From the sequence record NC_133119.1: DNA of 64,000 nucleotides. One strand, 5' to 3'. The DNA comes from Escherichia phage EscoHU1. Below, one piece after another: positions 34,144-62,573 of this stretch (the first letter of the stretch is position 1; each line of letters begins with the position of its first letter). The position numbers were made by a program, and so were the translations under genes. The notes below the pieces were generated by a model. The model saw only the letters and a list, made by a program, of their open reading frames with translations, made no database searches and was not told the DNA's origin.

Positions 34144-34321
34144 ATTTATCTTGTTTTTCGAGATCAACGAACTCTAAATCGTTGAAGTCTCCTAGAGTAC
34201 GGGAGTAATAACCGTCTCCAGCATCATAGCCTGATTTACCACACTTACACATCTTAAACTCACGTAGACGTGTAAAGATATGTTCAGAGCCACAACACTT
34301 AAATTTAACTAACTTTTTCAT
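34130..34321 (-). CDS. small zinc-ribbon-like protein
   Basis: 63 aa; CxGS...CKC; 3' end overlaps tRNA-Cys by about 14 nt. Confidence 0.35.
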   Translation of the reverse strand: MKKLVKFKCCGSEHIFTRLREFKMCKCGKSGYDAGDGYYSRTLGDFNDLEFVDLEKQDKSTVG

Positions 34322-34560
34322 CCAACACGCTCCGGTAAATCTTCGAGTTTATATTGAGTAGCCACATTAGCAGCATCTAGTAACAAACCCATATGTTTAA
34401 GAATTCTAGTGATAGCCTCGCCTTCTGCTTCTTCTACAAAGCAACGTAGTTGCATGAAGTCAATACCACCATCCATACCAGAGAAAATGTTAAGTAAGCG
34501 AAGCATTACCAGCTTACGTTCTTTTAATTCTTGTTCTGTCATGTTGCTTCTCCAGTTCAA
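34318..34560 (-). CDS. hypothetical protein
   Basis: 80 aa ORF. Confidence 0.4.
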   Translation of the reverse strand: MNWRSNMTEQELKERKLVMLRLLNIFSGMDGGIDFMQLRCFVEEAEGEAITRILKHMGLLLDAANVATQYKLEDLPERVG

Positions 34561-34571
34561 TTTATGTAATA

Positions 34572-34600
34572 ATTATACAGAACTTTAAGCGGTTAAGCAA
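34572..34600 (-). promoter_or_regulatory. early sigma70 promoter (-35 TTGCTT, -10 TATAAT)
   Basis: 17-bp spacer. Confidence 0.7.
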
Positions 34601-34880
34601 CTACATTTTTCAGAAATATGATGCCTTTCTTTTTCTTCTTATATTTCCATGTTAATGGATTCTGTCGATTATGAACGCTTGAGATCTTTGTCTCGTCAAA
34701 GTTCTTCAGTACCATGTAATCACAGGCCAACTGTTCCAGTGGGATGTGATCTCCGTCAAAAGCATAAACATAAGGCTGTTGACTGGCACGATAATGATAT
34801 ACTTTGTTAATTCTGCGTTTCAGTGACTTATCCGCACAGTAAATAAAGAAGTTTTCAGGATGCATCAGCATCTCCTTCAA
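34593..34880 (-). CDS. hypothetical protein
   Basis: 95 aa ORF. Confidence 0.4.
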   Translation of the reverse strand: MKEMLMHPENFFIYCADKSLKRRINKVYHYRASQQPYVYAFDGDHIPLEQLACDYMVLKNFDETKISSVHNRQNPLTWKYKKKKKGIIFLKNVVA

Positions 34881-34882
34881 AT

Positions 34883-34957
34883 TGGTGCACCCCGTTGGTA
34901 ACGATCCAACCTCTCAAGCTCTTCAGGCAAGCGCTAATCCATCTCAGCTAAAGGTGC
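34883..34957 (-). tRNA. tRNA-Phe-like (GAA), two U-U mismatches in anticodon stem, non-canonical T-loop
   Basis: Acceptor GCACCTT/GGGGTGC + ACCA; loop CTGAAGA; T-loop ATCGTTA. Confidence 0.5.
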
Positions 34958-34963
34958 AAATAT

Positions 34964-35043
34964 TGGCAAACCTACTAGGACTCGAACCTAGACCGTACGG
35001 TTTTGGAGACCGACATGCTGTCCAGTAACACTCTAGGGATGCA
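34964..35043 (-). tRNA. tRNA-Trp-like (CCA), 5' acceptor strand does not pair
   Basis: TCGGTCTCCAAAACCGT arm, T-arm, G73-CCA like E. coli tRNA-Trp; 5' half aberrant. Confidence 0.4.
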
Positions 35044-35048
35044 GAAAT

Positions 35049-35125
35049 TGGCGTCCTGTGCGGGGATCGAACCCGCAAATCCTACCTTGAAAGGGTAGTG
35101 ACTTTACCAGTTTGTCTAACAGGAC
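35049..35125 (-). tRNA. tRNA-Glu (UUC)
   Basis: GTCCTGT...ACAGGACGCCA ends, loop CTTTCAA. Confidence 0.8.
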
Positions 35126-35132
35126 TTAAATT

Positions 35133-35223
35133 TGGTGTTGGATGATGGAGTCGAACCACCCGAGACCCTTCCGAGTCGGCAGATTTACAGTCTGCTTCGC
35201 TACCTCTACGATACTAATCCAAC
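35133..35223 (-). tRNA. tRNA-Tyr (GUA)
   Basis: 91 nt; anticodon arm GCAGACTGTAAATCTGC identical to E. coli tRNA-Tyr. Confidence 0.85.
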
Positions 35224-35348
35224 ATATTTGAATGAAAAGTAAGTCGGTTAAACTCAAGGTGGAATATTTCAGGAAATCCTGACTTTACCCCTAAAAGCAA
35301 CTCGCTTAGTTACTTCTCATTCAGATATGTTTTCCAAATTAGATAACT

Positions 35349-35377
35349 ATTATACCAAGTTTTGAAGGACTGAGCAA
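35349..35377 (-). promoter_or_regulatory. early sigma70 promoter (-35 TTGCTC, -10 TATAAT) preceding tRNA-Tyr
   Basis: 17-bp spacer. Confidence 0.6.
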
Positions 35378-35413
35378 GTCAAATTTTAAAGAACTTGCTC
35401 AGTGCTATATCAG

Positions 35414-35689
35414 TTACTCGAAGCTAGGAGTGACACTCAGTTTGAATGGAAGCTCGAACACTTCTTCATAATCATCATTGAGCGTAATTACACGACCTTC
35501 TAGCTTAGTCATGGTGATTTCGATATCAGCCCTTGCATCAGGAGCCATACCAGCTTCCACACATTTAGCTTTGACTTCCGGCAGAAGTTCTACATCGTAG
35601 AAATAAAGCCATTCAATCTCACCCTCCCAGCCACCCCAGGATTTACAAACAGCACTTTCAACACCAGTTGCAGTAACACGTTTTGACAT
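35414..35689 (-). CDS. hypothetical acidic protein
   Basis: 91 aa ORF. Confidence 0.45.
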   Translation of the reverse strand: MSKRVTATGVESAVCKSWGGWEGEIEWLYFYDVELLPEVKAKCVEAGMAPDARADIEITMTKLEGRVITLNDDYEEVFELPFKLSVTPSFE

Positions 35690-35719
35690 TCGTTAACCCC
35701 TTCATCAATTTATATAACT

Positions 35720-35749
35720 ATTATATCAGAAATCTTAAGTAAAAAGCAA
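35720..35749 (-). promoter_or_regulatory. early sigma70 promoter (-35 TTGCTT, 18 bp, -10 TATAAT)
   Basis: Hexamers read on minus strand. Confidence 0.65.
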
Positions 35750-35779
35750 GTACATTTTTAAAATTTCTGCTTGGAGGAG

Positions 35780-36052
35780 TTAAACTCCTGATTCTTCAGC
35801 CAGATCAAGCCCAACCAACGTGATTGCCATAATAGCTGCGCCATGTTCTTTCTCTCCTAGCTCTTTGGCTTGAGTGAGAATATTGAGGAATTGCTTTTGA
35901 AAATCTGCAACTTCTTCTGTCATGCCTGCTTCAGCAATAATTCCTTTCAGCATAAAGCGTTGTGCTGTAATTTCAGGATTAGCCATTTGTTTTCTCCAGT
36001 TATTTAGAATGTAAGCCAAACTTAGGATCATAGCGATCGTAAGTCGTACCAT
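35780..36052 (-). CDS. hypothetical protein
   Basis: 90 aa ORF. Confidence 0.45.
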   Translation of the reverse strand: MVRLTIAMILSLAYILNNWRKQMANPEITAQRFMLKGIIAEAGMTEEVADFQKQFLNILTQAKELGEKEHGAAIMAITLVGLDLAEESGV

Positions 36053-36137
36053 TAGTTGAAGCCTTGATGCTATGAAAACGACAGTACATAAATTTACGTA
36101 GTGCTTTCTTAATAGCTTTCATTTTATTTCCTTAATT

Positions 36138-36214
36138 TGGTAGGGGTGGTGGGATTCGAACCCACAAAACCCGAATTTTAAGTCCGGTACCTATGCCAAT
36201 TCGATTACACCCCC
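36138..36214 (-). tRNA. tRNA with anticodon UAA (Leu by anticodon) in class-I frame
   Basis: 77 nt; stem CCGGA/TTCGG, loop CTTAAAA, 5-nt variable loop. Confidence 0.6.
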
Positions 36215-36223
36215 ATGTAATCT

Positions 36224-36571
36224 TTAGAGTTCGTAACCCTGAATATATCGAGCAAAACCAGTAATCTCGAACTGAATTGCCCATGCTACTTCCATATGCT
36301 CAATCTTACTAAAATGAGCGTCAGACTGTTCTAGGAAATAACGAGAGATTATAGGGAACTCAATGTCAAAATCTTCCTTATCCATACCATAGAAGAAGTT
36401 TCCAGAAATATTACGAACTTCACGAAAGAAATCCTCAATCTGAAAATCCATCAGAGGATAAGTATATTCCTCTTTGCTATCATCCGTTTGGAAGAAGCGG
36501 AAATGCACAAGGCAAGAGCCAATCAGATTTACTGCTGGAGTAGTGTAAATATCCATGTTAACCTCGATCAA
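36224..36571 (-). CDS. hypothetical acidic protein
   Basis: 115 aa ORF. Confidence 0.45.
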   Translation of the reverse strand: MIEVNMDIYTTPAVNLIGSCLVHFRFFQTDDSKEEYTYPLMDFQIEDFFREVRNISGNFFYGMDKEDFDIEFPIISRYFLEQSDAHFSKIEHMEVAWAIQFEITGFARYIQGYEL

Positions 36572-36743
36572 TATCTAGAGAAATTCCAAATTCTGGATTA
36601 ATACCAGAACCATTACATGCTGCACATTCCCACTCTTCAAAACGCATATCGCCAGGTTCAGCATCATTAATAGTACCTGTTCCATGGCAGTGAGCACACA
36701 TGCACTCTTCTAGTTCTTGTTTAAGCTCTTGAAACTTAGACAT
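36558..36743 (-). CDS. small Cys-rich protein
   Basis: 61 aa; CAHCHGTG...CAACNGSG. Confidence 0.4.
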   Translation of the reverse strand: MSKFQELKQELEECMCAHCHGTGTINDAEPGDMRFEEWECAACNGSGINPEFGISLDIDRG

Positions 36744-36760
36744 ATAGTCTCCTAGTTAAT

Positions 36761-36838
36761 TGGTGGCTCCCGGAGGATTCGAACCTACCTACCTTTCGCT
36801 TATGAGGCGACGGCTCATACCAAATGAGCTTGAGAACC
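36761..36838 (-). tRNA. tRNA, anticodon CAU (third CAU species)
   Basis: Acceptor GGTTCTC/GGGAGCC, loop CTCATAA, CCA encoded. Confidence 0.65.
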
Positions 36839-36843
36839 AAATT

Positions 36844-36915
36844 TGGAGGAAGATGCCAGACTCGAACTGGCACACCGTGTCTCCACAGCTACTGGCTGTT
36901 TAGCAAACAGCTCCC
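36844..36915 (-). other. tRNA-like element (T-arm, acceptor, CCA) with truncated anticodon region
   Basis: GCCAGTTCGAGTCTGGC + ATCTTCC-T-CCA; only about 16 nt between D-arm and T-arm. Confidence 0.3.
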
Positions 36916-36951
36916 TTACCTTTAGGGTTAATCTTCCAAATTTATGAATAT

Positions 36952-36980
36952 ATTATATTAGAAATTTAGCTTCATGGCAA
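36952..36980 (-). promoter_or_regulatory. early sigma70 promoter (-35 TTGCCA, -10 TATAAT)
   Basis: 17-bp spacer; overlaps stop of upstream gene. Confidence 0.6.
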
Positions 36981-37431
36981 GAAAATTTTTCAAGTTTTCT
37001 GTATTCATTTCATCTAAATCCATGAGGGAAGTAAACCCATTTAGTTTTTTAGCAAACTTCTCACCAGCAGAATCATTATCGCCTACGGCTACTACTTTAA
37101 AAGGTTGTAATTTTAGCTGCTTTAGCAATGCTTTGCTAGGGGAAGATCCTAGCATTGCTAGTGCGGGATATCCCGCGTTGTGTAGTGCCACAGCTTTAAA
37201 TACAGATTCTGCAACTAATACTAGGTCTTCATTACCTGTAAGAGTTTCTAAACCCCATAGACATTGAGTAGAAGAATGCGTAAAATATTTAGCTTCAGAA
37301 GGACATTTTCCATGACCTTTAGCTGCACTAGGGTTATATGTTTGATATCCACGTAACATGCCAGAGAAATCATACAGTGGAACTGTTAACCATCCATGTG
37401 GAGAGCCAACAGTGATACTTACCACTATCAA
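36958..37431 (-). CDS. hypothetical protein (possible Toprim-like fold)
   Basis: 157 aa; LVLVAESV...VVAVGDNDSAGEKF. Confidence 0.4.
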   Translation of the reverse strand: MIVVSITVGSPHGWLTVPLYDFSGMLRGYQTYNPSAAKGHGKCPSEAKYFTHSSTQCLWGLETLTGNEDLVLVAESVFKAVALHNAGYPALAMLGSSPSKALLKQLKLQPFKVVAVGDNDSAGEKFAKKLNGFTSLMDLDEMNTENLKNFLAMKLNF

Positions 37432-37505
37432 AGCCCCTAGATAAAAGATGTTGTTTTAACTCGTCAACAGTCATATATGACTCCTATCTATAATTTATAG
37501 AATAT

Positions 37506-37534
37506 ATTATATAGAAAATTTCGGCATTAAGCAA
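37506..37534 (-). promoter_or_regulatory. early sigma70 promoter (-35 TTGCTT, -10 TATAAT)
   Basis: 17-bp spacer. Confidence 0.7.
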
Positions 37535-37542
37535 GTGAAATT

Positions 37543-37839
37543 TTACTGAACACTGCACTGATACACTTGTTTGATACGTGTCACTGACTTCTTAGTTGGA
37601 TTGATAGAAGAACCTTGCCACCAACGTGATTCTGAGCTGAGAACAGCACCAGGAACAGCTTGTTCTTTTGGCAGAACAATATCAAAACATTGCTCACCCA
37701 TATTATCTTTAATGTGTGACCAAATATCCAAAGTAAATCGTTCTAACTTATTACAAACCTGAACTTGACAAAGTTCCTGTTGCGGAGCAGCAAATACAGA
37801 AGTAGATACTAGAGTCAATGCAAGTACAATGCGTTTCAT
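37543..37839 (-). CDS. secreted protein (signal peptide)
   Basis: 98 aa; MKRIVLALTLVSTSVFAAP. Confidence 0.45.
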   Translation of the reverse strand: MKRIVLALTLVSTSVFAAPQQELCQVQVCNKLERFTLDIWSHIKDNMGEQCFDIVLPKEQAVPGAVLSSESRWWQGSSINPTKKSVTRIKQVYQCSVQ

Positions 37840-37869
37840 GTTTGATTCCTCTCTCGAATTTATAAATAT

Positions 37870-37898
37870 ATTATACAGAAATTTTCTATATTAAGCAA
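37870..37898 (-). promoter_or_regulatory. early sigma70 promoter (-35 TTGCTT, -10 TATAAT)
   Basis: 17-bp spacer. Confidence 0.7.
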
Positions 37899-37916
37899 GT
37901 GAAAATTTCTGTATAA

Positions 37917-37937
37917 TAGCCCTCGCTTAGAGGGCTA
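37917..37937 (-). terminator. hairpin terminator (TAGCCCTC-GCTTA-GAGGGCTA)
   Basis: Directly after PnuC-like stop. Confidence 0.45.
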
Positions 37938-37945
37938 TAACTACT

Positions 37946-38638
37946 TTATTTGTTAACGCGTACAAAGTATCCTTTATAGGCTCCAAGAATGGAGTTACCT
38001 AAGAATACTAGCCACATTGCTAGGATTGCATAAGATGCACCTGTAGATTGAGCAGTTACAAGCCAAATGTATACAGTACCAATGTTAATAGCAATCCAGA
38101 TCAGCCATTGTTCAGCATATTGCTTGACCATAAGCCACATAGCAATCACACTACCAACCGCAGTAAATGCATCGAGCATCGGGAATGGATCAGCTGTAGT
38201 AGCAAGGAAGCTACCGTAACCTAAAGTAGCTACTGCTAGAACCCCTAGAGTCAGCAAAGCTTGGGCTTTAGTCAGAATCTTAGTTGGAACATCTGGCAGA
38301 TTACTTGGCTTATTTTTATGCCATAAGTACATTCCGTAGAACTGCATAGGAACGTAGTACAATAGGTTTAATGCTGCGTTACCATAAAGATCTGCATTTA
38401 AAGCTGTAATACCATAGGTAAGAACACCAACTAAGCCCCAAATATAGTTGGAAACGCGTCCTTTTGCAACCAAAATAACACAAACTACGTTGGTTATCGC
38501 AGTAGCCCAATCTAGAGGTGTACCATTATAGTTAGCTAAACTAATGAAGGCAACCGCTATGAACAGCCACAGATATTCCAGAGGTTTCCAGTTTTTAAAG
38601 TCATTTACGAGATAGTTAGTCATATTAAAACTCTCCAA
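37946..38638 (-). CDS. pnuC: nicotinamide riboside/NMN transporter PnuC-like
   Basis: 230 aa multi-TM; family resemblance (WLFIAVAFISL...YGMYLW). Confidence 0.65.
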   Translation of the reverse strand: MESFNMTNYLVNDFKNWKPLEYLWLFIAVAFISLANYNGTPLDWATAITNVVCVILVAKGRVSNYIWGLVGVLTYGITALNADLYGNAALNLLYYVPMQFYGMYLWHKNKPSNLPDVPTKILTKAQALLTLGVLAVATLGYGSFLATTADPFPMLDAFTAVGSVIAMWLMVKQYAEQWLIWIAINIGTVYIWLVTAQSTGASYAILAMWLVFLGNSILGAYKGYFVRVNK

Positions 38639-39680
38639 CGTTAAAGTGATGAATCAGCCAGTCTACTGCGTTTACTGCTTCGTCCATACGAACTTTGTAG
38701 TCCGGGGAGTCGATGTAAACAGTACGCCCTTCAGGGAACTGATTTGGAAATTCTTTCTTCATCTGCTCGAACAGTTCAGAAGTAATTGAACGATCGGAGT
38801 TAATACGTAAACCATCATCTACCCACTTGACAGTAGGCGCTAGAACAATTACTAAATCGTAATGTTCTTCTTTTGCAATTGCTGTAACCACAGGGTTCTT
38901 ACGATGTTCATAAAGTCTGTGGTAGAACTCAGTAATAAAAGCATTTGTATCCACAAACATGATCTTATTTGCAGTACGTTCTGCTTCAAATTCTAGCTCT
39001 TTGTGTCTGAACGCAATTTTACTATAATCTTCGCTGGTAAGCAGATTTTCGTTACCAACTAGATCAACTTCACAATACGTTCGGCCATATTCTTCTACCC
39101 ACGAAGTGTTGTATAGCTTCGCAAGGTATTTTGTTAAAGTAGTCTTTCCCGAGCTTTCAGTCCCAATGATTACAACCTTACGCACGTAATCTTTACGAAC
39201 TACGCTAGGAAGAAACTCCCAATACTTCATAAGATCATTACGAATCATTGTAGCTGAGATTGGAACACGAGTCCGATCAGAATCTACAATATAATGACCA
39301 AACTTCGGCAGATATTTCTTATATTCTGCATCATAGTCTAGTTCGCTAGAGAAAATGGTGATCTCAGGCAAATGTCCATAATTTTCATTAAGGATTCTAG
39401 CATATTCCGGCCAACCATTCGGATATTCAGGAATATCATCTTCAATAATGTACTCTACCGAAACGTGCTCAATATCCGCGTAAGTTTGTTCTAACCAACG
39501 AAGTCGATTCTTTAACTGTAATACTTCCTGATCACGTGTGTTCTGCTTATCCAGCCAACGATTATCATGACTAACTACAACAATAACTCGTTCACACATA
39601 GTTGCTGCTGTGTTTATTAGGTTAATATGACCACGCGTTAATGGTGCGAACTTACCAATTACTAGACCAGTCTTAATCAT
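38625..39680 (-). CDS. nadR: NadR-like bifunctional NMN adenylyltransferase / ribosylnicotinamide kinase
   Basis: GKFAPLTRGH nucleotidyltransferase motif + P-loop GTESSGKTT; start set at MIKTGLVIGKF after GAGG RBS. Confidence 0.7.
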   Translation of the reverse strand: MIKTGLVIGKFAPLTRGHINLINTAATMCERVIVVVSHDNRWLDKQNTRDQEVLQLKNRLRWLEQTYADIEHVSVEYIIEDDIPEYPNGWPEYARILNENYGHLPEITIFSSELDYDAEYKKYLPKFGHYIVDSDRTRVPISATMIRNDLMKYWEFLPSVVRKDYVRKVVIIGTESSGKTTLTKYLAKLYNTSWVEEYGRTYCEVDLVGNENLLTSEDYSKIAFRHKELEFEAERTANKIMFVDTNAFITEFYHRLYEHRKNPVVTAIAKEEHYDLVIVLAPTVKWVDDGLRINSDRSITSELFEQMKKEFPNQFPEGRTVYIDSPDYKVRMDEAVNAVDWLIHHFNVGEF

Positions 39681-39710
39681 ATTTGATTCCTCTCTCAAAT
39701 TTATAAATAT

Positions 39711-39739
39711 ATTATACAGAGAATTTAGCATTCAAGCAA
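39711..39739 (-). promoter_or_regulatory. early sigma70 promoter (-35 TTGCTT, -10 TATAAT)
   Basis: 17-bp spacer. Confidence 0.7.
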
Positions 39740-39855
39740 TCGAATTTTTTAACTTTTTAGAGGAAAATCGCAGGGCACTTAAGGGTAGCAGATGAGTGGT
39801 GAGGACCAGAAATTGTTACCCCAATAAAAATCCGGGGGCAATTTTTAAAGACCCC

Positions 39856-39884
39856 TTGACATTTTCGCTGGGATAGGATAAAGT
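39856..39884 (+). promoter_or_regulatory. candidate plus-strand promoter (-35 TTGACA, -10 TAAAGT)
   Basis: 17-bp spacer; -10 is weak. Confidence 0.3.
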
Positions 39885-39945
39885 ATATGTTATGGATGAG
39901 TGATCAAAGAGACACACATTTTCTATATACTAGGAGGTGTCAAAA

Positions 39946-40974
39946 ATGACAGAAGAAGTAGCTAAGAAACCTGAATCTCTAAGTGAAGTAGCAGCAGAAC
40001 TGCATCGTCACGAAGAATCAGACAAGAAAAAGTGGGAAAAGCTTAAAGCTCAAGAGCGAGCTGACGAGCATCATTATCATCATCACCATCATGAACACTA
40101 TGAGGAAGATGATGAAGACGACGAAGAAGAAGATGAACATGAACATCATGGTTATCACAAATATGGAGAAAGAAAAATGCAAGAACCAGTAAACGTATTC
40201 ACTAACGGCTTCCCTGGCCTGATGGGTGGTTACCCAGCTAACGCAGGTGCTTTCGGTGGAGAAGGTATGGGTCTATTCGGAGCTATCCTAATCGGTGCTC
40301 TATTAACAGGCGGATTCGGTGGATTTGGTGGATTTGGCGGACGTGGAGCAGGTGCTGTGGCTGAATTAACTGGTGTAGAAACTGTTCTGAGTAACCAAAA
40401 TACGTCAAGTATCCTATCTGCAATCAATACTGCTCGTACTGAAGCTAACCAGGGAACTGGTGCTGTTCTAAGCGCAGTAAATGGTGTAGGTGCTGCAGGT
40501 GCTGCTAGCACTCAGCAGATTCTGACTTCTCTGTACGGTACTGGTGCTAACCTGTCCAATCAGATCTGTCAGGAAACTCGTAGCGTTATTCAGGGTCAGT
40601 TTGACCTGTCTCGCCAGATCGATCAGTCCTTCGCGGCTAACCAGATCGCTCGTGCTCAAGACAAGTTTGATGCTGCTCAGATCGCTTTCCAGCAGACTAT
40701 TCAGACTAACAACCAGTTCGCTGCTGTAGCTGCACAGGCGTGCGCTAACCAGAACGCTCTGGAACGTCAGATCGCTGAATGTTGCTGTGAACTTCAGACT
40801 GCAATCGCTGGTGTAACTACTGCGCGTATTCAGGATGAATTAGATGAATGCCGTCTGCGTGAAGCAATCGCTGCAGGTAATGGTGCTAATGGTCAGGTAA
40901 TCAACCAAATCGCTGTAAGTCTTGGTGCTATCACTCAGACTCTAGCTGGTCTGCAGGCTAAACTGCCGGCTTAA
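39946..40974 (+). CDS. low-complexity protein: His/acidic-rich N-terminus, Gly-rich segment, Q/A-rich C-terminus
   Basis: AGGAGG RBS then ATG (track's GTG start at 39937 trimmed); HHYHHHHHEHYEEDDEDDEEEDEHEHH; GGFGGFGGFGG. Confidence 0.55.
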   Translation: MTEEVAKKPESLSEVAAELHRHEESDKKKWEKLKAQERADEHHYHHHHHEHYEEDDEDDEEEDEHEHHGYHKYGERKMQEPVNVFTNGFPGLMGGYPANAGAFGGEGMGLFGAILIGALLTGGFGGFGGFGGRGAGAVAELTGVETVLSNQNTSSILSAINTARTEANQGTGAVLSAVNGVGAAGAASTQQILTSLYGTGANLSNQICQETRSVIQGQFDLSRQIDQSFAANQIARAQDKFDAAQIAFQQTIQTNNQFAAVAAQACANQNALERQIAECCCELQTAIAGVTTARIQDELDECRLREAIAAGNGANGQVINQIAVSLGAITQTLAGLQAKLPA

Positions 40975-40996
40975 TAATTAAGGGGAGGAGCCCATT

Positions 40997-41431
40997 ATGA
41001 GTAAATATGGTTTTGTGAACAACGGATTTAATCAACAAATGGGCTCCCAGCAGCCCGTTCCGGGTCTAGATAACCCTTACTTACAACAGTTGCAACAGCG
41101 TTTGGCAGAAGCACAAAATATGCAACAGCAGTTCCAACAACCTGGAACTGCTAACCCTATGCAGATGATGCAACAGCAAATGGTAGGGCAGCCGCAAATG
41201 CCTCAACAAATGCAGCCTCAGATGCAGCAAATGCAACAAATGCCTCAACAGCAGCAAGTTCAACAACTCCAACATCCGCAGGTATCTGCGGAAGGACAGG
41301 CTGTTCTAGCCCTTTTCGAAGACTTCGCTAAAACAGAGGATGGGAAGCAACTTGTATCGCTTATGGGTAAGTTTAACAGCTTCTGTCAGAGTCAGGTTGC
41401 AAAAGCTCAGAATGGGGGTAATAACTCCTAA
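40997..41431 (+). CDS. Gln-rich protein
   Basis: 144 aa; GGAGG RBS; long Q/M/P repeats. Confidence 0.5.
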   Translation: MSKYGFVNNGFNQQMGSQQPVPGLDNPYLQQLQQRLAEAQNMQQQFQQPGTANPMQMMQQQMVGQPQMPQQMQPQMQQMQQMPQQQQVQQLQHPQVSAEGQAVLALFEDFAKTEDGKQLVSLMGKFNSFCQSQVAKAQNGGNNS

Positions 41432-41440
41432 GGAGAAATT

Positions 41441-41635
41441 ATGTGTTGTAGAAAACCTGTGTCATGCTGTCCTATGCCTGTAGCACGTTGTTGCTCTCCA
41501 GCAATGTTTACACAAATACCGGTGTTCAATCCCTTTGCCTTTAAGCCTACTCTTATCCTGCCCCCTAGAGTAGATTTTCAGTCAAGATTGGTCTCCCGTA
41601 TGGGTGGTTGCTGTACACCGAGAGTATGGTTCTAA
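41441..41635 (+). CDS. small Cys-rich protein
   Basis: 64 aa; AGGAG RBS; 9 Cys. Confidence 0.4.
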   Translation: MCCRKPVSCCPMPVARCCSPAMFTQIPVFNPFAFKPTLILPPRVDFQSRLVSRMGGCCTPRVWF

Positions 41636-41648
41636 ACCAAAAAACAAA

Positions 41649-41673
41649 AGCCCCTACGTCTTTTGACTAGGGG
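41649..41673. terminator. bidirectional rho-independent terminator
   Basis: GCCCCTA-loop-TAGGGGC with T-runs on both sides. Confidence 0.65.
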
Positions 41674-41682
41674 CTTTCTTGT

Positions 41683-42213
41683 TTATAAATTTAAGTAATC
41701 TAGAGAAGGTATCACACCATCAAATTCTTCTAGGATAGCAAACTCTCCAGCAAATTCTTTCCTCATTTCGTTAGCTTTTGCTATCGCACTTCCAAGATCT
41801 TCGTAACCAAAAGATCCTCCTGATCTTTTAATACCTTCCTTATCTCTTATTAATACTCTCCATTTTTGCCTGTTCTTCTCCCAGCATACATTAGCATACC
41901 CAGACTTAGACTTTAATTTCTTATTTCTTTGATTTTGAGAATCTGTAGATTCTCTTAGATTGTCCCATGCATTATTATTTCTAATCCTATCTTTATGATC
42001 GACCATGCTAGGTAGGTATCCTTTTACATAAAGGAATGCTAGAACATGGGCTAAGTACATTTTTCCAGAGATCTGAATTCTGATATATCCATCAGATGTT
42101 AGGCTTCCCGCAATGCTGCCGGCCTTCTTGTTTCCTCTACTAACCTTATATGTAAACAATCCAGTTTCTTGATCATAGTCAAAAAGCTCTTTCAATTTTT
42201 CTTGAGTTAACAT
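41683..42213 (-). CDS. HNH endonuclease with AP2-like DNA-binding domain
   Basis: 176 aa; YLAHVLAF...VDHKDRIRNNNAWDNLR; C-terminal GYANVCWEK...RSGGSFGYEDLGSAIAKANEMR. Confidence 0.7.
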   Translation of the reverse strand: MLTQEKLKELFDYDQETGLFTYKVSRGNKKAGSIAGSLTSDGYIRIQISGKMYLAHVLAFLYVKGYLPSMVDHKDRIRNNNAWDNLRESTDSQNQRNKKLKSKSGYANVCWEKNRQKWRVLIRDKEGIKRSGGSFGYEDLGSAIAKANEMRKEFAGEFAILEEFDGVIPSLDYLNL

Positions 42214-42287
42214 AAGTTCCTTAAATACAGAAAAGCCCTGCGCTCTCCAGGGAACGCAGGGCTTACTTCAGAGATTACATGCTGGTA

Positions 42288-43232
42288 TTACTTATTACGC
42301 ATATCCATGATCATCTGGCCATCGTAACCAGTTCCCACTACTGTTTGCGGTACACCACCTTGGTATTTTTCAGCACGAAGCATTTCAACTTCCAGCTGCT
42401 TCCAACGAATCATTTCAGGAGTAATGGTACGTTGCAGAGCGGCGTTAGCTTCAGCTTCTTTCTTAGCTGCGTACAGTTTAGCATCTGCGTCACGTTCGTT
42501 AGCTACTGCCATGTTTTCACGAGCAGAGCGATCTGCTTCAGCTTGCTTAACTTTCTGCTGTGCTTCTTGTTCAACACGAGCCAGTTCAGCTTTTGCTGCG
42601 TTAACTTGTTCTTCACGAACTTTTGTGTTCTGTACCTGTTCCATAATTACCGGTGGCAGAGTAATATCCTGAAGGAATACTTGCTTAACGGTGTAACCAT
42701 AAGGGCGCGCATACTCTTCTACTTCTTGCTGAATAGCAGTTTGCAGTTGAGCCTGAATCTTAGCGTCGAACAGATCTTGTGCTTTTGGTACAGACTTACC
42801 AAACTCACGAATCGTAGATAGCATCTTCTCTTCAACGTATTTGTTAAGAGCTTGATCCTGAGTACCTGCGTTAACACGGTTCATAGGAGCTTTAGCTCCA
42901 TCAAACTGTAACATAACGGTAATGTCAACAGTAGACTTAAACTTATCCTGGCTAGGAACCTGAAGTTTATCCAGTTTCATAGAAATATCTTTCGTACTAA
43001 AAGTATCAAAAGAGGCTAATGGGTTAACAATATGGAAGCCTGGCAATACAGGATTCGGGCTAACTTTACCCAGGAAAGTTTGAGTCTTAACAGTACCATC
43101 CTGAACAACTGTATAGGAATTGAGAGCCAGAATAAGAGCACCAAGACCAACAGCAGCACCAACACCCCAACGTTTAATAGTACGAATTACTTTTTGCTCA
43201 GAAGTCAGTTCTTTAGTGTTTTTAGTAAACAT
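42288..43232 (-). CDS. SPFH/band-7 (stomatin/prohibitin/HflK-like) membrane protein
   Basis: N-terminal TM then SPFH-like core and long coiled coil; start moved to MFTKNTKEL to clear the tRNA. Confidence 0.65.
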   Translation of the reverse strand: MFTKNTKELTSEQKVIRTIKRWGVGAAVGLGALILALNSYTVVQDGTVKTQTFLGKVSPNPVLPGFHIVNPLASFDTFSTKDISMKLDKLQVPSQDKFKSTVDITVMLQFDGAKAPMNRVNAGTQDQALNKYVEEKMLSTIREFGKSVPKAQDLFDAKIQAQLQTAIQQEVEEYARPYGYTVKQVFLQDITLPPVIMEQVQNTKVREEQVNAAKAELARVEQEAQQKVKQAEADRSARENMAVANERDADAKLYAAKKEAEANAALQRTITPEMIRWKQLEVEMLRAEKYQGGVPQTVVGTGYDGQMIMDMRNK

Positions 43233-43265
43233 ATATTTCCTTTGTTTAGTTACAGTTAATAAAAT

Positions 43266-43340
43266 TGGCCGAGGTGACAGGATTCGAACCTGCATAAAGG
43301 AATTTAGAAGACTCCTGCCTATCCCTTAGACTACACCCCG
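43266..43340 (-). tRNA. tRNA-Arg (UCU)
   Basis: Loop CTTCTAA, T-arm GCAGGTTCGAATCCTGT, G73-CCA. Confidence 0.75.
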
Positions 43341-58701: not shown

Positions 58702-58726
58702 AGCCAGGTTGCTAGTCGACCTGGCT
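58702..58726 (+). terminator. rho-independent terminator after nrdD
   Basis: AGCCAGGT-loop-ACCTGGCT then TTTTATTTTATTT. Confidence 0.7.
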
Positions 58727-58793
58727 TTTATTTTATTTGCTTTCGAGCTAAAACTTATGTATAATTGATTTATAAATTTGAGAGGAGAAAGCT

Positions 58794-59288: not shown

Positions 59289-59451
59289 TTTAGAAAATAT
59301 GCTTATGGAGCAGTGGAATGCTGGGTATAATGCTGGAGTAGCTACCTGTATTGCTGGTTTGGATATGCTTATTAAGCAAGAGAAGGTTCGCCCAGAAGAA
59401 GCAATTCTGCTCCAAAATATCATCGAAGGATTCAAGCAAGGAATCGTATAA
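59257..59451 (+). CDS. hypothetical protein
   Basis: GGAGG RBS then ATG; stop overlaps Sir2-like start. Confidence 0.4.
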   Translation: MDFLNQNLKSNLENMLMEQWNAGYNAGVATCIAGLDMLIKQEKVRPEEAILLQNIIEGFKQGIV

Positions 59452-60302
59452 TGCGTAGACTAATCGTTGTTAGTGGTGCAGGTTTGAGTGTAGATAGTGG
59501 TGTTCGTGCTTTCCGTACTGATACTGCTAGTGGGAAATCCTTGTGGGATGAGTACGATCTAGAGGAAGTATGTAGCTTGCCTAACTTTGAAGCTGGCTTC
59601 CGTCGCTTCTGTGGTGAAGATGACCCTAACTACTTCAGTGCTCGTTTCCCTGGCATTGATGAAGATGGTAACGATCTGTATCTCAAGACTCATGAGTTCT
59701 ACAACATGCGTCGTCAGGAATTACAGACTGTTGAGCCTAACATTGCCCATCTGCGAATTGCAGAATGGTTCCAGCGTTATGGTGCGGATAGCGTGAAGAA
59801 CTTCACTACTAACGTTGATGACCTTCTGGAACGTGCTGGTATCCCTCGTGATGAAATCATTCACGCTCACGGGTACTTGAAAGAGGTGATCTATCGTCAG
59901 GGTCGCAACCAAATCATCGAAGATGTTGGGTATACTGCGATTGCCCCTGAGGATTACGAATGGGTAAAACCAAACGTAACATTCTTTGGTGAGACGGCTC
60001 CGTGGTATATGGGTCAGATTAACCTGTTTGATACACTTACTAGCAATGATATGGTTATTGTAGTAGGTTGTAGCAACCAAGTAATCGACTTCAACTGGGA
60101 GCTATTTCCTGCTGTATGTCGTGGAACTAAGATGATGGTTGTTAACCCACAAGTTCGTTATGACGAACAGCTTGAGTATGAGAAACGTGGTGTTACTGTA
60201 TGGCGTGCTGGAGCTGCCGAAGTTTTTGGTAACAAACAATTCATTGGCCAAGTTGAAGCTTTTATGGAAGGAACTATTTATGCACCAGAAAAGCATAGGT
60301 GA
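59451..60302 (+). CDS. Sir2-like (sirtuin-family) NAD-dependent enzyme, no obvious zinc ribbon
   Basis: 283 aa; GAGLSVDSGVRAFR, TTNVDDLLERAG, HAHG, VTFFGE. Confidence 0.65.
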   Translation: MRRLIVVSGAGLSVDSGVRAFRTDTASGKSLWDEYDLEEVCSLPNFEAGFRRFCGEDDPNYFSARFPGIDEDGNDLYLKTHEFYNMRRQELQTVEPNIAHLRIAEWFQRYGADSVKNFTTNVDDLLERAGIPRDEIIHAHGYLKEVIYRQGRNQIIEDVGYTAIAPEDYEWVKPNVTFFGETAPWYMGQINLFDTLTSNDMVIVVGCSNQVIDFNWELFPAVCRGTKMMVVNPQVRYDEQLEYEKRGVTVWRAGAAEVFGNKQFIGQVEAFMEGTIYAPEKHR

Positions 60303-60442
60303 TCTTTTAGTATGGCCGGACGGTAGTTGGTGCTACCGTTTCGAATTTGCTACCGATGACTTCTCATGGAAGAGTGATGATTTCTGTGTTATCTACGAAG
60401 ATACAGCAGAATGGAAAGAATTCCTGATTAAGGAGGGAGAAT

Positions 60443-60628
60443 ATGGTGAAGAAGATTTTTAAGGGTATCTGGAAAGGTCTAGTATGGTTTGTCAACCTAA
60501 TTGGTGTGATTACCATTTATTCTCTGTTCCTATCTGTTATATGGGGTAAAGGTGAACTGAAGGTTCCAGTTCCTTTTACTGATGAAGTTAAAGTCTGGAC
60601 GTGGGATGCTACTGGTGGAAATAAGTAA
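60443..60628 (+). CDS. small membrane protein
   Basis: 61 aa with TM segment. Confidence 0.4.
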   Translation: MVKKIFKGIWKGLVWFVNLIGVITIYSLFLSVIWGKGELKVPVPFTDEVKVWTWDATGGNK

Positions 60629-61121
60629 TACTCCTGTGATTTTCCTGGATATTGATGGGGTGCTCAATTCGAGCATCTCTCACCATCATGCCCCAGATAA
60701 TGAAAAGCTGTTCTTTGGCAGTGATTGGGTTTATAAACCATTACTCCAGGCTTTTCAGAACTTCCTTAAACCTTCTCCAATAATGATTGTTGGGGTATCT
60801 TCATGGTTTTCTGTACGAAACGAGATGGAGAACGTTCAGATTATGACCGGGCTCGGTTTGATCGATCGTTTCCTTGGTACAACAGATTTTACTGGAGGTG
60901 GTTTATCTCGAGGTAATTCTGTCTTACGTTTCGTAGAAAAACATAAGCTCAAGCATTGGTGCGTCCTAGATGATGCTGGTGCTATGATGTACCAATTTCC
61001 TACTGTTATTGTAAATGGCAGGACTGGAATAAACCTTCAAGATTTAAATGCTATCAGCTATATGCTGGAATTTAGTCCAGATCTTGAAATGTGTAAGGCT
61101 CTTCAGAAACTTAAGGTATAA
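60582..61121 (+). CDS. HAD-like hydrolase
   Basis: FLDIDGVLN motif; true start may be the internal Met at 60606. Confidence 0.45.
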   Translation: MKLKSGRGMLLVEISNTPVIFLDIDGVLNSSISHHHAPDNEKLFFGSDWVYKPLLQAFQNFLKPSPIMIVGVSSWFSVRNEMENVQIMTGLGLIDRFLGTTDFTGGGLSRGNSVLRFVEKHKLKHWCVLDDAGAMMYQFPTVIVNGRTGINLQDLNAISYMLEFSPDLEMCKALQKLKV

Positions 61122-61123
61122 GC

Positions 61124-61552
61124 ATGTTCAATAATATTTTCATGAAAGAGGTAAATCCTATGCTTCTCAACTTCTGGTGCTCTCTCCCTAATGGTATGTA
61201 TAATGAAACCATCAATCTGCTCAAGATTTGGTGTGAGAATAACGATATCTTCTTATCCTTTAAAGGCCCGCTAGAGGAAGCTCCGTGTATTGGAGTTAGC
61301 GTGGATTTAGGGGAGGGAGTAGAAGAGATTGTAGACTGGAAAGAACTCGATGAAATGGGTCTGGTTTTTGCCTTGAACCATAAGCTGTTTATGCCTGCAA
61401 ATCACCGTCTTATTGTAAATTATCGCACTGGTGAAGCTCCTGCTTTCCAGGTAAATGAACGTGAGGGCTGGTCATATTCGCCCGAGGAAGTAAATGAGGG
61501 GATTCAGAAACTTCGTCGTTTCGGATATATGATCCCAGGTTTAACTGCTTAA
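61124..61552 (+). CDS. hypothetical protein, tandem paralog A
   Basis: 142 aa; C-terminal half similar to next ORF. Confidence 0.5.
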   Translation: MFNNIFMKEVNPMLLNFWCSLPNGMYNETINLLKIWCENNDIFLSFKGPLEEAPCIGVSVDLGEGVEEIVDWKELDEMGLVFALNHKLFMPANHRLIVNYRTGEAPAFQVNEREGWSYSPEEVNEGIQKLRRFGYMIPGLTA

Positions 61553-61561
61553 GGAGGCAGA

Positions 61562-61957
61562 ATGGAACAAGTATTTTGGCGTCAGATAGATCCTAGTTTG
61601 GTAGAGCGTGCTGAGGGGCTCCTTGCACGTTGGTTGGGGGTTGACAAGGTTAGTGTAACATTTCCGTTTACTTCTGTAACAGACCCTAGTGTAGGTGTCT
61701 TTGTGGACGAAAATGAAGATGATGGTTGGGAAGCTGACTGGAATGAATTGTCCAGCATGGGCTTGATTGTTGCCCTCAACTTCTCTATATTCCATCCACG
61801 TGGCTTAGCCATTACACGTGACCCCGAAACTGGTGAATCCCCTTATCTTTTGCAAGTAGAAGATGATATTTGGGAGTACACCGAAGATATTCTCGAAGAA
61901 GCTAAAGGTCAATTAAATCGCATTGGAATCTATGTCCCAGGCCTAAATGATGATTGA
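61562..61957 (+). CDS. hypothetical protein, tandem paralog B
   Basis: 131 aa; GGAGG RBS; shares ...GL[IV][FV]ALN...[IM]PGL with previous ORF. Confidence 0.5.
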   Translation: MEQVFWRQIDPSLVERAEGLLARWLGVDKVSVTFPFTSVTDPSVGVFVDENEDDGWEADWNELSSMGLIVALNFSIFHPRGLAITRDPETGESPYLLQVEDDIWEYTEDILEEAKGQLNRIGIYVPGLNDD

Positions 61958-61980
61958 TTTTCATTAGCTCAATCCTGATT

Positions 61981-62001
61981 ACCGAGTCAAAATGACTCGG
62001 T
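61981..62001 (+). terminator. rho-independent terminator
   Basis: ACCGAGTCA-AAAT-GACTCGGT then TTTCTCT. Confidence 0.65.
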
Positions 62002-62062
62002 TTTCTCTGTGCTCAAGGACACTGATAGCACCTTCGGAAAAATTTTACTTGCAGGATGCTCA

Positions 62063-62075
62063 AAATCTTGATATA
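62063..62075 (+). promoter_or_regulatory. candidate extended -10 promoter (TGATATAAT)
   Basis: TG-N-TATAAT read directly; no clear -35. Confidence 0.35.
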
Positions 62076-62573
62076 ATATTTATATTGAATTGAGAGACAT
62101 TAGTAAAAATTGATTTTGCTAATTTTTCTTGTTTACAATCCGCAATACGGAACAGTTAGGCTGCCCCATTAAGGGTTGTTTTAACTATTACTAGTGTTTA
62201 TACTGCATTAGTTAATTATCAATTAAGTGATCTGCGTACCCTGAATTCGGAAAGGTAAATCCAAACCGTGCATATTTAGCTCGTTATATAGGCAGAGTTT
62301 TATATGGGGGTGCGAACGAAAAGAGCAGCGAATGGTGACACGTCCAGTAGCCACCTACCAATAGGATAGTGAGGGCAATCAGAATCGGCTTAGCGGCCAA
62401 TGACCTAGGTTCTGATCTGGATAAGAGTTAAGAGAGCGCAGCACTGAGGTATGATAACTTATTCATACTGCTTGATGATGATTAATGTTTGTGTAAATGG
62501 TAGTAATAGTTGTTCTATTCTTCTGAATAGTCCTAAAGAAAGATATCCGAATAACCAACATAGGAGTATTGTT

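What the first reader, a model, noticed from the sequence alone, without database searches (positions are those of the whole stretch)
61124..61957. Tandem paralogous gene pair of unknown function
Two adjacent ORFs share a conserved C-terminal half but have divergent N-termini. This looks like a recent duplication followed by divergence, which is typical of specificity-determining or anti-defence genes.
Basis: seen in the sequence. Interest (0 to 1): 0.35.

Follow-up and report, generated by a model that had tools for sequence, protein, structure and literature searches.

The report
Ancient paralog pair, DUF7415 phage proteins
These two adjacent genes in a T5-like phage are real but very old duplicates (the T5.106/T5.107 pair) of a catalogued, uncharacterised phage family called DUF7415; they are kept under purifying selection, so this is an ordinary known gene pair of unknown function rather than a fast-evolving novelty.

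Summary
ORFs A (61124-61552, 142 aa) and B (61562-61957, 131 aa) are paralogs: 31% identity over 124 aa, E=2e-19. The C-halves are 37% identical and the N-halves are weakly but significantly similar.

The window is an Epseptimavirus-like T5 relative, and the genes are orthologs of T5.106 and T5.107. Both belong to Pfam DUF7415 and PHROG 2502.

The duplication is ancient, not recent. A-type and B-type clades both include Sugarlandvirus genes. Both copies occur in about 520 phage genomes, with dN/dS of about 0.05-0.25.

B keeps 14 of 16 conserved family positions. A keeps 6, and its replacements are conserved among A orthologs, which points to subfunctionalisation.

Single-domain relatives are moron-like genes in T4-, P2- and lambda-like phages. 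Some are fused to thymidylate kinase, a dATP/dGTP pyrophosphohydrolase or an ASCH domain.

My best guess, at low confidence, is a pair of acidic, non-catalytic binding proteins made early in infection, possibly partnering nucleotide-handling proteins. Function is untested. Interest is low to moderate.

The parts
58702..58726 (+). Intrinsic terminator after nrdD. It separates nrdD from the transcription unit that contains the pair.
   Evidence: 10-bp stem with 6 GC pairs plus a T-run. T5 has an annotated terminator at the equivalent place.
58737..58765 (+). Probable early promoter of the operon (TTGCTT, 17-nt spacer, TATAAT). The first small ORF starts at 58794.
   Evidence: Read directly from the sequence. 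It corresponds to the annotated T5 early promoter P31. The consensus scanner did not flag it because the -35 hexamer matches only 3 of 6.
59451..60302 (+). Sir2-like gene (T5.102 ortholog), an operon partner. The order Sir2, then DUF7415, then the origin-binding-protein gene is conserved across Demerecviridae lineages.
   Evidence: Pfam SIR2 at 77.7 bits. Synteny is shown.
60582..61121 (+). HAD_SAK_2 phosphatase-like gene (T5.105 ortholog), immediately upstream. Its stop lies 2 nt before the start of A.
   Evidence: Pfam PF18143 at 69.9 bits. Stitch annotates a start equivalent to 60606. dN/dS is 0.03-0.10.
61124..61552 (+). Paralog A (142 aa, T5.106 ortholog). It is the derived copy.
   Evidence: ORF. 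DUF7415 at 120.8 bits and PHROG 2502 at 198.7 bits. AF2 model pLDDT 85.9, with residues 1-12 disordered. dN/dS is 0.05-0.25.
61160..61321 (+). A N-terminal half (residues 13-66), predicted as strand, helix, then three strands. It is lineage-specific and evolves faster.
   Evidence: Secondary structure. It passes the Pfam DUF7415 threshold (68.9 bits) but is not matched by a profile of single-domain relatives or by hhalign. The N-half dN/dS is higher than the C-half dN/dS.
61325..61492 (+). A C-terminal DUF7415 domain (residues 68-123), degenerate relative to the family.
   Evidence: 42.8 bits against the single-domain profile. It keeps 6 of 16 conserved positions. The replacements (N to K, S to D, H to M, L to H, A to R) are 92-100% conserved among A orthologs.
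61551..61557 (+). Shine-Dalgarno AAGGAGG for B. It overlaps A's TAA stop (61550-61552) and lies 4 nt before B's ATG (61562).
   Evidence: Read from the sequence. Stitch annotates an RBS at the equivalent place.
61562..61957 (+). Paralog B (131 aa, T5.107 ortholog). It is the canonical copy and is very acidic (net charge -19).
   Evidence: ORF. DUF7415 at 97.8 bits and PHROG 2502 at 196.6 bits. AF2 model pLDDT 91.9 and pTM 0.85. Charge. dN/dS is 0.10-0.24.
61562..61729 (+). B N-terminal half (residues 1-56). It has the most relaxed constraint (omega 0.14-0.43) and an indel-rich loop at about residues 50-57 among orthologs.
   Evidence: for the halves and the alignment (columns 62-72). Pfam gives 43.9 bits, but the single-domain profile does not match it.
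61733..61894 (+). B canonical DUF7415 domain (residues 58-111): DWNELS..GL..LN...FHP.GLA..RDPETGES......D.WEY.
   Evidence: 84.9 bits against a profile built only from single-domain relatives. It keeps 14 of 16 positions that are >=80% conserved in the family.
61981..62010 (+). Intrinsic terminator that ends the operon, followed by a roughly 560-nt spacer before the origin-binding-protein gene (about 62574 onward, running off the window).
   Evidence: 9-bp stem with 5 GC pairs plus a T-run. Terminators are annotated at the equivalent place in Stitch and T5.

Best explanation
What is shown: A and B are the T5.106/T5.107 orthologs of an Epseptimavirus-like T5 relative. They form an ancient tandem duplication of a two-part protein. 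Each protein has a lineage-specific N-terminal half packed against a C-terminal DUF7415 domain, apparently forming one small alpha/beta unit. They are the last two genes of an early transcription unit (promoter near 58737, small ORFs, Sir2-like, HAD_SAK_2, A, B, terminator at 61981), and B has its own strong ribosome-binding site. The duplication predates the Markadamsvirinae/Sugarlandvirus split. Both copies are retained in about 520 sequenced genomes under purifying selection. B keeps the canonical DUF7415 signature, whereas A carries a different but conserved set of residues at the same positions. The copies are therefore subfunctionalised and non-redundant.

What is inferred: the proteins are non-catalytic, acidic binding modules made early in infection. 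B presents the ancestral binding surface (the DWN, N, HP-G and RDPETG-S loop positions). A presents a derived surface. The two probably act together, possibly as a hetero-oligomer. The partner is most likely a protein that handles nucleotides or nucleic acids, from either the phage or the host, because that is what the domain is fused to or wedged beside in other phages.
Against: No experiment or publication addresses the family; the searches for DUF7415, PF24187, the PHROG ids and T5.106/T5.107 found no paper. Binding, hetero-oligomerisation and partner identity are all inferred. I could not run a multimer prediction or inspect model coordinates. Many single-domain relatives sit where no nucleotide enzyme is nearby: between P2 gpL and gpX, after P2 gpA, and between lambda-like Nu1 and the large terminase. 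Most other fusion partners are uncharacterised. Non-structural phage genes are nucleotide-related so often that the association could be background. The mosaic phage C13 combines a T5-type A with an Epseptimavirus-type B, which argues against tight A-B co-evolution. Conserved polar residues (Asn, His, Ser, Asp, Arg) could instead mark a ligand-binding or catalytic site.
Confidence: 0.4

Rival explanations
1. Anti-defence or host-takeover inhibitor. In this reading, DUF7415 proteins are small acidic decoys that block a host immune or DNA/RNA-binding protein, and T5-like phages carry two diverged copies to cover two targets.
Confidence: 0.15
2. Small-ligand (nucleotide or NAD-derived) binding domain. 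In this reading, DUF7415 is a sensor, allosteric or sponge module for a nucleotide-like molecule, which would explain its attachment to nucleotide enzymes and its conserved polar pocket residues.
For: All three annotated fusion partners bind nucleotides or nucleosides: Tmk, a MazG-like dATP/dGTP PPase and ASCH. Neighbours include NrdD/NrdG, NudE/NUDIX, a Sir2-like (NAD-using) protein and a HAD phosphatase. Asn, His, Ser, Asp and Arg positions are invariant or nearly so.
Against: No similarity to any known nucleotide-binding fold. The domain is only about 55 aa and strongly acidic, which is unfavourable for binding anionic ligands without a metal. A has lost most of the conserved polar residues yet is still under purifying selection.
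Confidence: 0.12
3. Dedicated partner or regulator of the phage Sir2-like enzyme. In this reading, the B-type protein modulates or targets the Sir2-like protein encoded just upstream.
For: The order Sir2-like, then a two-domain DUF7415 gene, then obp is kept in six Demerecviridae lineages. This includes one that lacks both nrdD and HAD, where the DUF7415 start overlaps the Sir2 stop.
Against: Demerecviridae genomes are syntenic throughout, so adjacency carries little weight. None of the single-domain relatives examined lies near a Sir2 gene.
Confidence: 0.1
4. The database labels are right: B is a tail tube protein and A is an exonuclease, as some GenBank records annotate them.
For: Only the source names, such as 'putative tail tube protein' (JLBYU43, DU_PP_V, vB_Sen-E22) and 'exonuclease / Phage exonuclease (ACLAME 70)'.
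Against: There is no Pfam, PHROG, NCBIfam or PDB similarity to tail tube or nuclease families. No fold match was found. The genes lie in an early operon far from the structural module. From established knowledge, T5's tail tube is the much larger late protein pb6.
Confidence: 0.01

Closest known systems
T5.106 / T5.107 of phage T5 (NC_005859; ORF098 and the 'Aeh1ORF298c-like protein' in AY587007); Stitch gp113/gp114
   Same: These are orthologs at the same position: the last two genes of the early unit after Sir2-like and HAD, followed by a terminator and the origin-binding-protein gene. They are about 68-69% identical to T5 and 98-99% identical to Stitch.
   Different: Nothing substantive differs. 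The window's copies are simply the Epseptimavirus alleles. All are annotated as hypothetical proteins.
Pfam DUF7415 (PF24187) / PHROG 2502, 3954, 1812, 33705
   Same: Both proteins exceed the Pfam gathering score (120.8 and 97.8 bits against 27) and match PHROG 2502 end to end. Predicted folds match other DUF7415 proteins in BFVD.
   Different: Most family members are single-domain proteins of 60-100 aa. The T5-like proteins add an N-terminal half and a C-terminal helix plus a conserved PGL tail. Whether the N-half is a second DUF7415 repeat is unresolved: Pfam says yes, but independent profiles do not support it.
Single-domain DUF7415 genes of T4-like phages, e.g. Klebsiella phage PKO111 gp081 between nrdD and nrdG
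   Same: They share the core motif with B's C-domain (87-97 bits against the same profile) and are also early genes in a nucleotide-metabolism setting.
   Different: They are 72-86 aa with one domain and one copy, and are less acidic.
P2-like 'Orf91' proteins (ASCH/DUF3850 fused to DUF7415, e.g. Yersinia phage vB_YpM_50 gp02)
   Same: They carry a canonical DUF7415 domain (92.3 bits). The T5.106 RefSeq note itself cites similarity to an 'ORF91'.
   Different: The domain is fused to an ASCH domain, sits downstream of replication gene A in a temperate phage, and is not duplicated. P2's own Orf91 lacks the DUF7415 part.
Small acidic phage inhibitor proteins (Ocr, Ugi, anti-CRISPRs such as AcrIC4)

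Membership tests
Pfam DUF7415 (PF24187) | Whole-protein score above the curated gathering threshold (27 bits) | tested here: met
   A scores 120.8 bits and B scores 97.8 bits.
Pfam DUF7415 (PF24187) | Core motif of the single-domain family (DWN, S, GL, IN, LHP-GLA, G-S, D-W-Y) | tested here: met
   B's C-domain keeps 14 of 16 positions that are >=80% conserved and scores 84.9 bits against a profile built without T5-like sequences. A's C-domain keeps only 6 of 16 but still scores 42.8 bits, E=7e-15.
Pfam DUF7415 (PF24187) | Predicted fold shared with other members | tested here: met
   Every BFVD hit with E<=0.001 that carries a name is a DUF7415 protein. Two-domain members reach TM 0.8-0.98, and single-domain members align to about 65-72 columns at 30-43% identity.
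Two tandem DUF7415 repeats within each protein (four copies in the locus) | The N-terminal half is homologous to the C-terminal DUF7415 domain | tested here: inconclusive
   Each half alone passes the Pfam threshold: 68.9 and 56.6 bits for A, 43.9 and 57.8 bits for B. A profile built from single-domain members does not match either N-half. hhalign of N against C gives only 1.7-21% probability. The secondary-structure order (W, helix, hairpin, strand) is similar in both halves. The Pfam hit could reflect T5-like N-halves in its seed alignment. I had no access to coordinates for a superposition.
PHROG 2502 | End-to-end profile match | tested here: met
   A matches residues 11-142 to profile positions 2-134 of 134 (E=6e-59). 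B matches residues 1-130 to positions 4-134 of 134 (E=3e-58).
Recently duplicated, diversifying (arms-race) gene pair | Low synonymous divergence between the copies, or a lineage-restricted duplication | tested here: not met
   The copies are 31% identical at the protein level. Both the A and B clades contain Sugarlandvirus genes.
Recently duplicated, diversifying (arms-race) gene pair | Elevated dN/dS and patchy presence among relatives | tested here: not met
   Pairwise dN/dS is 0.05-0.25, with a half-gene maximum of 0.43 based on few substitutions. A is in 521 records and B in 523. Site-wise tests were not run.
Phage tail tube protein (label in some records) | Homology to a tail-tube family or fold, and location in the late structural module | tested here: not met
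Exonuclease (label in some records) | A recognisable nuclease domain or catalytic motif | tested here: not met
   No nuclease family in Pfam, NCBIfam or PDB, and no nuclease fold at a significant Z.
Anti-CRISPR AcrIC4-like | Significant structural similarity | tested here: not met
Known anti-phage defence proteins (PADLOC) | A profile match | tested here: not met
   No hit at E<=0.1 for A, B, HAD or Sir2-like.

The most novel reading that the evidence does not exclude
DUF7415 is a widespread, horizontally mobile phage module of about 55 aa, found in T4-, T5-, P2- and lambda-like phages of Gammaproteobacteria, with a fold unlike any solved structure. In this reading it docks onto, or regulates, nucleotide-handling enzymes or a conserved host hub, or it binds a nucleotide-derived ligand. 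T5-like phages would then have elaborated it into a two-gene, probably heteromeric, canonical-plus-derived pair working with their Sir2-like/HAD unit.
Probability: 0.2. Interest if true: 0.5.

Novelty: already known. Interest (0 to 1): 0.25.

Why it matters
As it stands, this is a correctly spotted but ordinary pair. The genes have been in the T5 genome records as T5.106/T5.107 (NC_005859) and ORF098 plus its neighbour (AY587007), and the family is catalogued as DUF7415. What this analysis adds is the following. The pair is ancient and subfunctionalised. B is the canonical copy and A the derived one. The core domain is a promiscuous phage module with no solved structural relative. Its fusions and neighbours lean towards nucleotide-handling enzymes. 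If a function were found, it would annotate hundreds of phage and prophage genes at once. It would also correct recurring mislabels such as 'tail tube protein' and 'exonuclease'.

Tried and rejected
- **Internal repeats:** I tested whether each protein is a tandem repeat of DUF7415. Pfam says yes for all four halves. Within-protein BLAST and Smith-Waterman, hhalign on two alignments and a profile of single-domain members do not support N-C homology. I leave this open.
- **PDB sequence searches:** only chance-level hits, such as LRR proteins and an Rhs protein.
- **NCBIfam and PADLOC:** no hits for A or B.
- **Literature:** the identifier searches ('DUF7415', 'PF24187', the PHROG ids, 'T5.106/T5.107') found no paper. 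General T5 searches and the phiR2-01 paper contained nothing on these genes.
- **Locus finding:** The search for related loci with the domain alignment failed because no stretch was conserved enough. One context look-up (P0283) was not on record.
- **nrdD as the conserved partner:** rejected. A terminator and promoter separate nrdD from the unit. One Demerecviridae lineage lacks nrdD but keeps Sir2 next to DUF7415. P2-like and lambda-like contexts have no nrd genes.
- **Direct RNA/DNA binding:** one source names a member 'RNA-binding protein', and ASCH, RnlA and HAD_SAK_2 are neighbours. I consider this unlikely because the proteins are strongly acidic.
- **Long repeat proteins in the profile search** (P0055, P0077, P0084, P0121, P0151): they match only a short 'DG-W-Y-xPD' hairpin-like segment many times and were discarded as unrelated.
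- **Spacer 61958-62573:** no Rfam family and no notable repeats.

Full report
**1. The observation**

BLASTP aligns A residues 17-140 to B residues 5-128 without gaps, at 31% identity and E=2e-19.

I compared the observed Smith-Waterman scores with 1000 shuffles:

| Region | z-score | Notes |
|---|---|---|
| Full length | 26.9 | |
| C-halves | 24.0 | 37% identity, E=1e-16 |
| N-halves | 6.7 | weak but significant |

No shuffle reached the observed score in any of the three tests.

B has an AAGGAGG Shine-Dalgarno at 61551-61557 that overlaps A's stop codon. A starts 2 nt after the stop of the upstream gene. An intrinsic terminator follows B at 61981-62001.

**2. What genome this is, and which genes**

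The region is 98-99% identical to Epseptimavirus-type T5-like phages such as Stitch, LVR16A and TrudiRoth. About 550 phage records match it. In Stitch the genes are gp113 and gp114. In T5 they are T5.106 and T5.107 (NC_005859), or ORF098 and the 'Aeh1ORF298c-like protein' (AY587007). All are annotated as hypothetical proteins.

The genes lie in the T5 early region, inside the nucleotide-metabolism cluster. On the minus strand are thyA, nrdB, nrdA and phoH. On the plus strand is nrdD.

A strong terminator at 58702-58726 and a TTGCTT-17-TATAAT promoter at 58737-58765 separate nrdD from a unit that runs to the terminator at 61981. This matches T5's annotated terminator and promoter P31. The unit contains three small ORFs, a Sir2-like gene (59451-60302), two small ORFs, a HAD_SAK_2 phosphatase-like gene (60582-61121), then A and B. 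Downstream, after about 560 nt, the origin-binding-protein gene begins and runs off the window.

**3. Family**

Both proteins exceed the Pfam gathering score for DUF7415 (PF24187), with 120.8 and 97.8 bits against a threshold of 27. Both match PHROG 2502 end to end. B also matches PHROGs 3954, 33705 and 1812 through its C-half. NCBIfam, PADLOC and PDB sequence searches give nothing meaningful. No paper in the library mentions DUF7415, PF24187, the PHROG ids or T5.106/T5.107.

Pfam reports two DUF7415 stretches per protein, and each of the four halves passes the threshold on its own (68.9, 56.6, 43.9 and 57.8 bits). That would make the locus four tandem domain copies. I could not confirm this independently:
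- A profile built only from single-domain relatives matches the two C-domains (B 84.9 bits, A 42.8 bits) but neither N-half.
- Profile-profile comparison of N-halves with C-halves, or with the single-domain family, gives only 1.7-21% probability.
- The predicted secondary-structure order is similar in both halves.

The question stays open. The Pfam hits on the N-halves may simply reflect T5-like N-halves in the seed alignment.

**4. Structure**

AlphaFold2 models are confident. B has pLDDT 91.9 and pTM 0.85. A has pLDDT 85.9 and pTM 0.82, with only residues 1-12 disordered. The two models share one architecture: strand, helix and three strands, then two helices, two strands and a C-terminal helix, followed by a conserved PGL tail.

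**5. Age and fate of the duplication**

The duplication is old. Klebsiella Sugarlandvirus phages have a tandem pair at the same place, and both genes are DUF7415 proteins. Gene 1 is A-like (72-75 bits to A, 28-30 to B). Gene 2 is B-like (62-76 bits to B, 44-52 to A).

In a neighbour-joining tree, the A clade groups Markadamsvirinae A, Sugarlandvirus gene 1 and three metagenomic relatives with 98% bootstrap support (50 replicates). Other Demerecviridae lineages have a single two-domain gene at this position: Hongcheonvirus, a 122-kb genome (JX195166) and two metagenomic contigs. Three of these group with B.

tblastn finds A in 521 phage records and B in 523 at >=80% coverage, with two places per record. 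The pair is therefore kept essentially everywhere in this clade.

**6. Selection**

I calculated Nei-Gojobori dN/dS on codon alignments of seven phages:

| Gene or region | dN/dS |
|---|---|
| A | 0.05-0.25 |
| B | 0.10-0.24 (up to 0.41 for near-identical pairs with very few changes) |
| HAD neighbour | 0.03-0.10 |
| Sir2-like | 0.10-0.26 |
| C-halves of A and B | 0.05-0.17 |
| N-halves of A and B | 0.12-0.43 |

dS is saturated for the most distant pairs. B's N-half also has an indel-rich loop among orthologs. Overall this is purifying selection with a more relaxed N-half. It is not gene-wide diversifying selection. Site-wise tests were not run.

**7. Asymmetry of the copies**

Sixteen positions are at least 80% conserved in the single-domain family. 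B keeps 14, and the two differences are conservative (I to L, L to F). A keeps 6. A's replacements are N to K, S to D, H to M, L to H and A to R, and they are 92-100% conserved among A orthologs. B therefore carries the ancestral signature, and A carries a different, constrained one. Together with universal co-retention, this points to subfunctionalisation or neofunctionalisation rather than redundancy or decay.

B is also unusually acidic, with net charge -19 (-14.5 per 100 aa). A is at -6.3 per 100 aa, the single-domain family median is -6.5, and 18 other window proteins have a median of -2.4 and a minimum of -7.6.

**8. The wider family**

An exhaustive profile search found 159 cluster representatives at E<=1e-3. 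A domain-profile search found 106 more proteins, almost all stand-alone proteins of 50-100 aa from phages and prophages of Gammaproteobacteria. They share a strongly conserved core: DWNELS..GLI.RIN.EILHPLGLA..RD.ETG.S.G.LV..DG.WEY.

Their genomic positions are very diverse:

| Host genome | Position of the DUF7415 gene |
|---|---|
| Klebsiella T4-like phage PKO111 | between nrdD and nrdG, overlapping both |
| Cronobacter phage GAP161 | one gene downstream of NudE |
| Aeromonas phage AsFcp_2 | directly after RNA ligase 1 (RnlA) |
| Pseudomonas P2-like prophages | between gpL and gpX |
| E. coli and metagenomic P2-like elements | just after replication gene A |
| A lambda-like element | between Nu1-like small terminase and large terminase |
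| Other phage contigs | among small unknown ORFs |

The annotated fusion partners are:
- thymidylate kinase (P0086, one contig);
- dATP/dGTP pyrophosphohydrolase PF04447 (P0171, 11 contigs, in a lambdoid early region);
- ASCH/DUF3850 in P2-like 'Orf91' proteins. Yersinia phage vB_YpM_50 gp02 has an ASCH part 97% identical to P2 Orf91 residues 1-75, followed by a DUF7415 domain at 92 bits.

These are shown. Other fusion partners are uncharacterised.

**9. How it most likely works**

Shown: the anatomy, operon placement, age of the duplication, co-retention, purifying selection, canonical-versus-derived asymmetry, acidity, absence of any catalytic family or known fold, and the promiscuous moron-like and fusion behaviour of the core domain.

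Inferred: A and B are non-catalytic binding proteins made early in infection. B presents the ancestral DUF7415 surface and A a derived one. They probably act together. The partner is probably a protein that handles nucleotides or nucleic acids, because all three annotated fusion partners and several neighbours are of that kind.

I put about 0.4 on this composite. The evolutionary and anatomical part is close to certain, and the mechanism is weak.

Points against the mechanism:
- Many relatives sit in structural or packaging operons with no such enzyme nearby.
- Nucleotide-related neighbours are common background in phage early regions.
- The mosaic phage C13 combines a T5-type A with an Epseptimavirus-type B, which argues against tight A-B co-evolution.
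- The conserved polar residues could mark a ligand site.

Rivals:
- an anti-defence or host-takeover inhibitor (0.15);
- a small-ligand binding module (0.12);
- a dedicated partner of the Sir2-like enzyme, supported only by conserved adjacency within Demerecviridae, including one lineage without nrdD or HAD where the genes overlap (0.1);
- the database labels 'tail tube protein' and 'exonuclease', which have no support (0.01).

**10. Novelty and verdict**

The genes and the family are already catalogued, so I rate the finding as already known. Interest is low to moderate (0.25). There is no surprise for a specialist, but this is a widespread, structurally unassigned phage domain whose function, once found, would annotate many genes.

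Noticed in passing
L029 (phage P2, NC_001895) 3317-3646; L030 (Yersinia phage vB_YpM_50) 2264-2719: P2 Orf91 (109 aa) is an ASCH/DUF3850 protein. Its first 75 residues are 97% identical to YpM_50 gp02 (151 aa), which continues into a canonical DUF7415 domain. P2's tail after residue 75 is unrelated and lies next to the tin/old cassette. P2 therefore seems to have lost the DUF7415 half, possibly when that cassette was acquired.
   Followed up: partly
L018 (record 'Campylobacter phage C13', MG065692) 254-1596, compared with window 60582-61957: This is a mosaic. C13's HAD and A genes are T5-type (dN to T5 of 0.03 and 0.10, against 0.09 and 0.19 to the window). Its B gene is Epseptimavirus-type (dN of 0.083 to the window, against 0.258 to T5). 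This implies a recombination breakpoint between, or at the junction of, A and B.
   Followed up: partly
window 59400-62200 (hit H1, and H37): The best DNA match (98.8%) is a record named 'Campylobacter phage A148'. C13 is similarly labelled (that record is marked UNVERIFIED) and its taxonomy line places it in Demerecviridae. A Campylobacter host for a T5-like enterobacterial phage looks like a labelling or contamination issue.
   Followed up: no
window 60582-61121, 61124-61552 and 61562-61957: Several annotations in public records look propagated and wrong. The HAD_SAK_2 gene is called 'Sir2 (NAD-dependent deacetylase)' in RefSeq T5 (T5.105) and in PHROG 18062. A is called 'exonuclease'. B is called 'tail tube protein'. 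None of these labels is supported by any profile or fold search.
   Followed up: yes
L015 (T5 AY587007) 4072-4491, compared with L017 (NC_005859) 4598-5026: The two T5 records differ at the N-terminus of the A ortholog. One is 139 aa and starts MYSLKKLIQYWLIFGV. The other is 142 aa, and related phages start MFNNVFSKEANPILVNFW. This suggests a frameshift or sequencing difference near codon 17 in one record. It inflates the N-half dN values that involve T5.
   Followed up: no
L033 4211-5489; L031 3330-5411; L013 3120-4881; L014 3222-4884: The order Sir2-like gene, then two-domain DUF7415 gene, then a spacer of about 400-600 nt, then the origin-binding-protein gene is conserved in every Demerecviridae lineage examined that includes this stretch. 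This holds even where nrdD and HAD are absent. In L033 the DUF7415 start overlaps the Sir2 stop.
   Followed up: partly
window 27922-43340 (- strand): ARAGORN tRNA genes here, including three tRNA-Met, two tRNA-Gln, two tRNA-Ala and three tRNA-Ser. This is the typical T5-like tRNA region.
   Followed up: no
window 61958-62573: This spacer of about 600 nt between the operon terminator and the origin-binding-protein gene has few ORFs. It has no Rfam match at E<=0.1. It contains only a weak 21-nt inverted repeat (62183-62203 and 62491-62511, 81% complementary). T5 annotates early promoter P32 in the equivalent region.
   Followed up: partly
proteins P0055, P0077, P0084, P0121, P0151: Very long repeat proteins (500-4900 aa) match profile positions of about 85-120 many times through a short 'EDG-W-Y-TPD...L' motif. 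This is probably a convergent hairpin-like repeat, as in VCBS or Ig-like adhesins, and not homology.
   Followed up: partly
L010/L011 6001-7663 (E. coli P2-like prophages): After gene A, in the region before the portal gene where phage P2 carries tin and old, a stand-alone DUF7415 gene (78 aa) is followed by a 67-aa ORF and a 298-aa ORF. Neither has a Pfam family. The 298-aa gene could be an uncharacterised cargo gene at this variable position.
   Followed up: no
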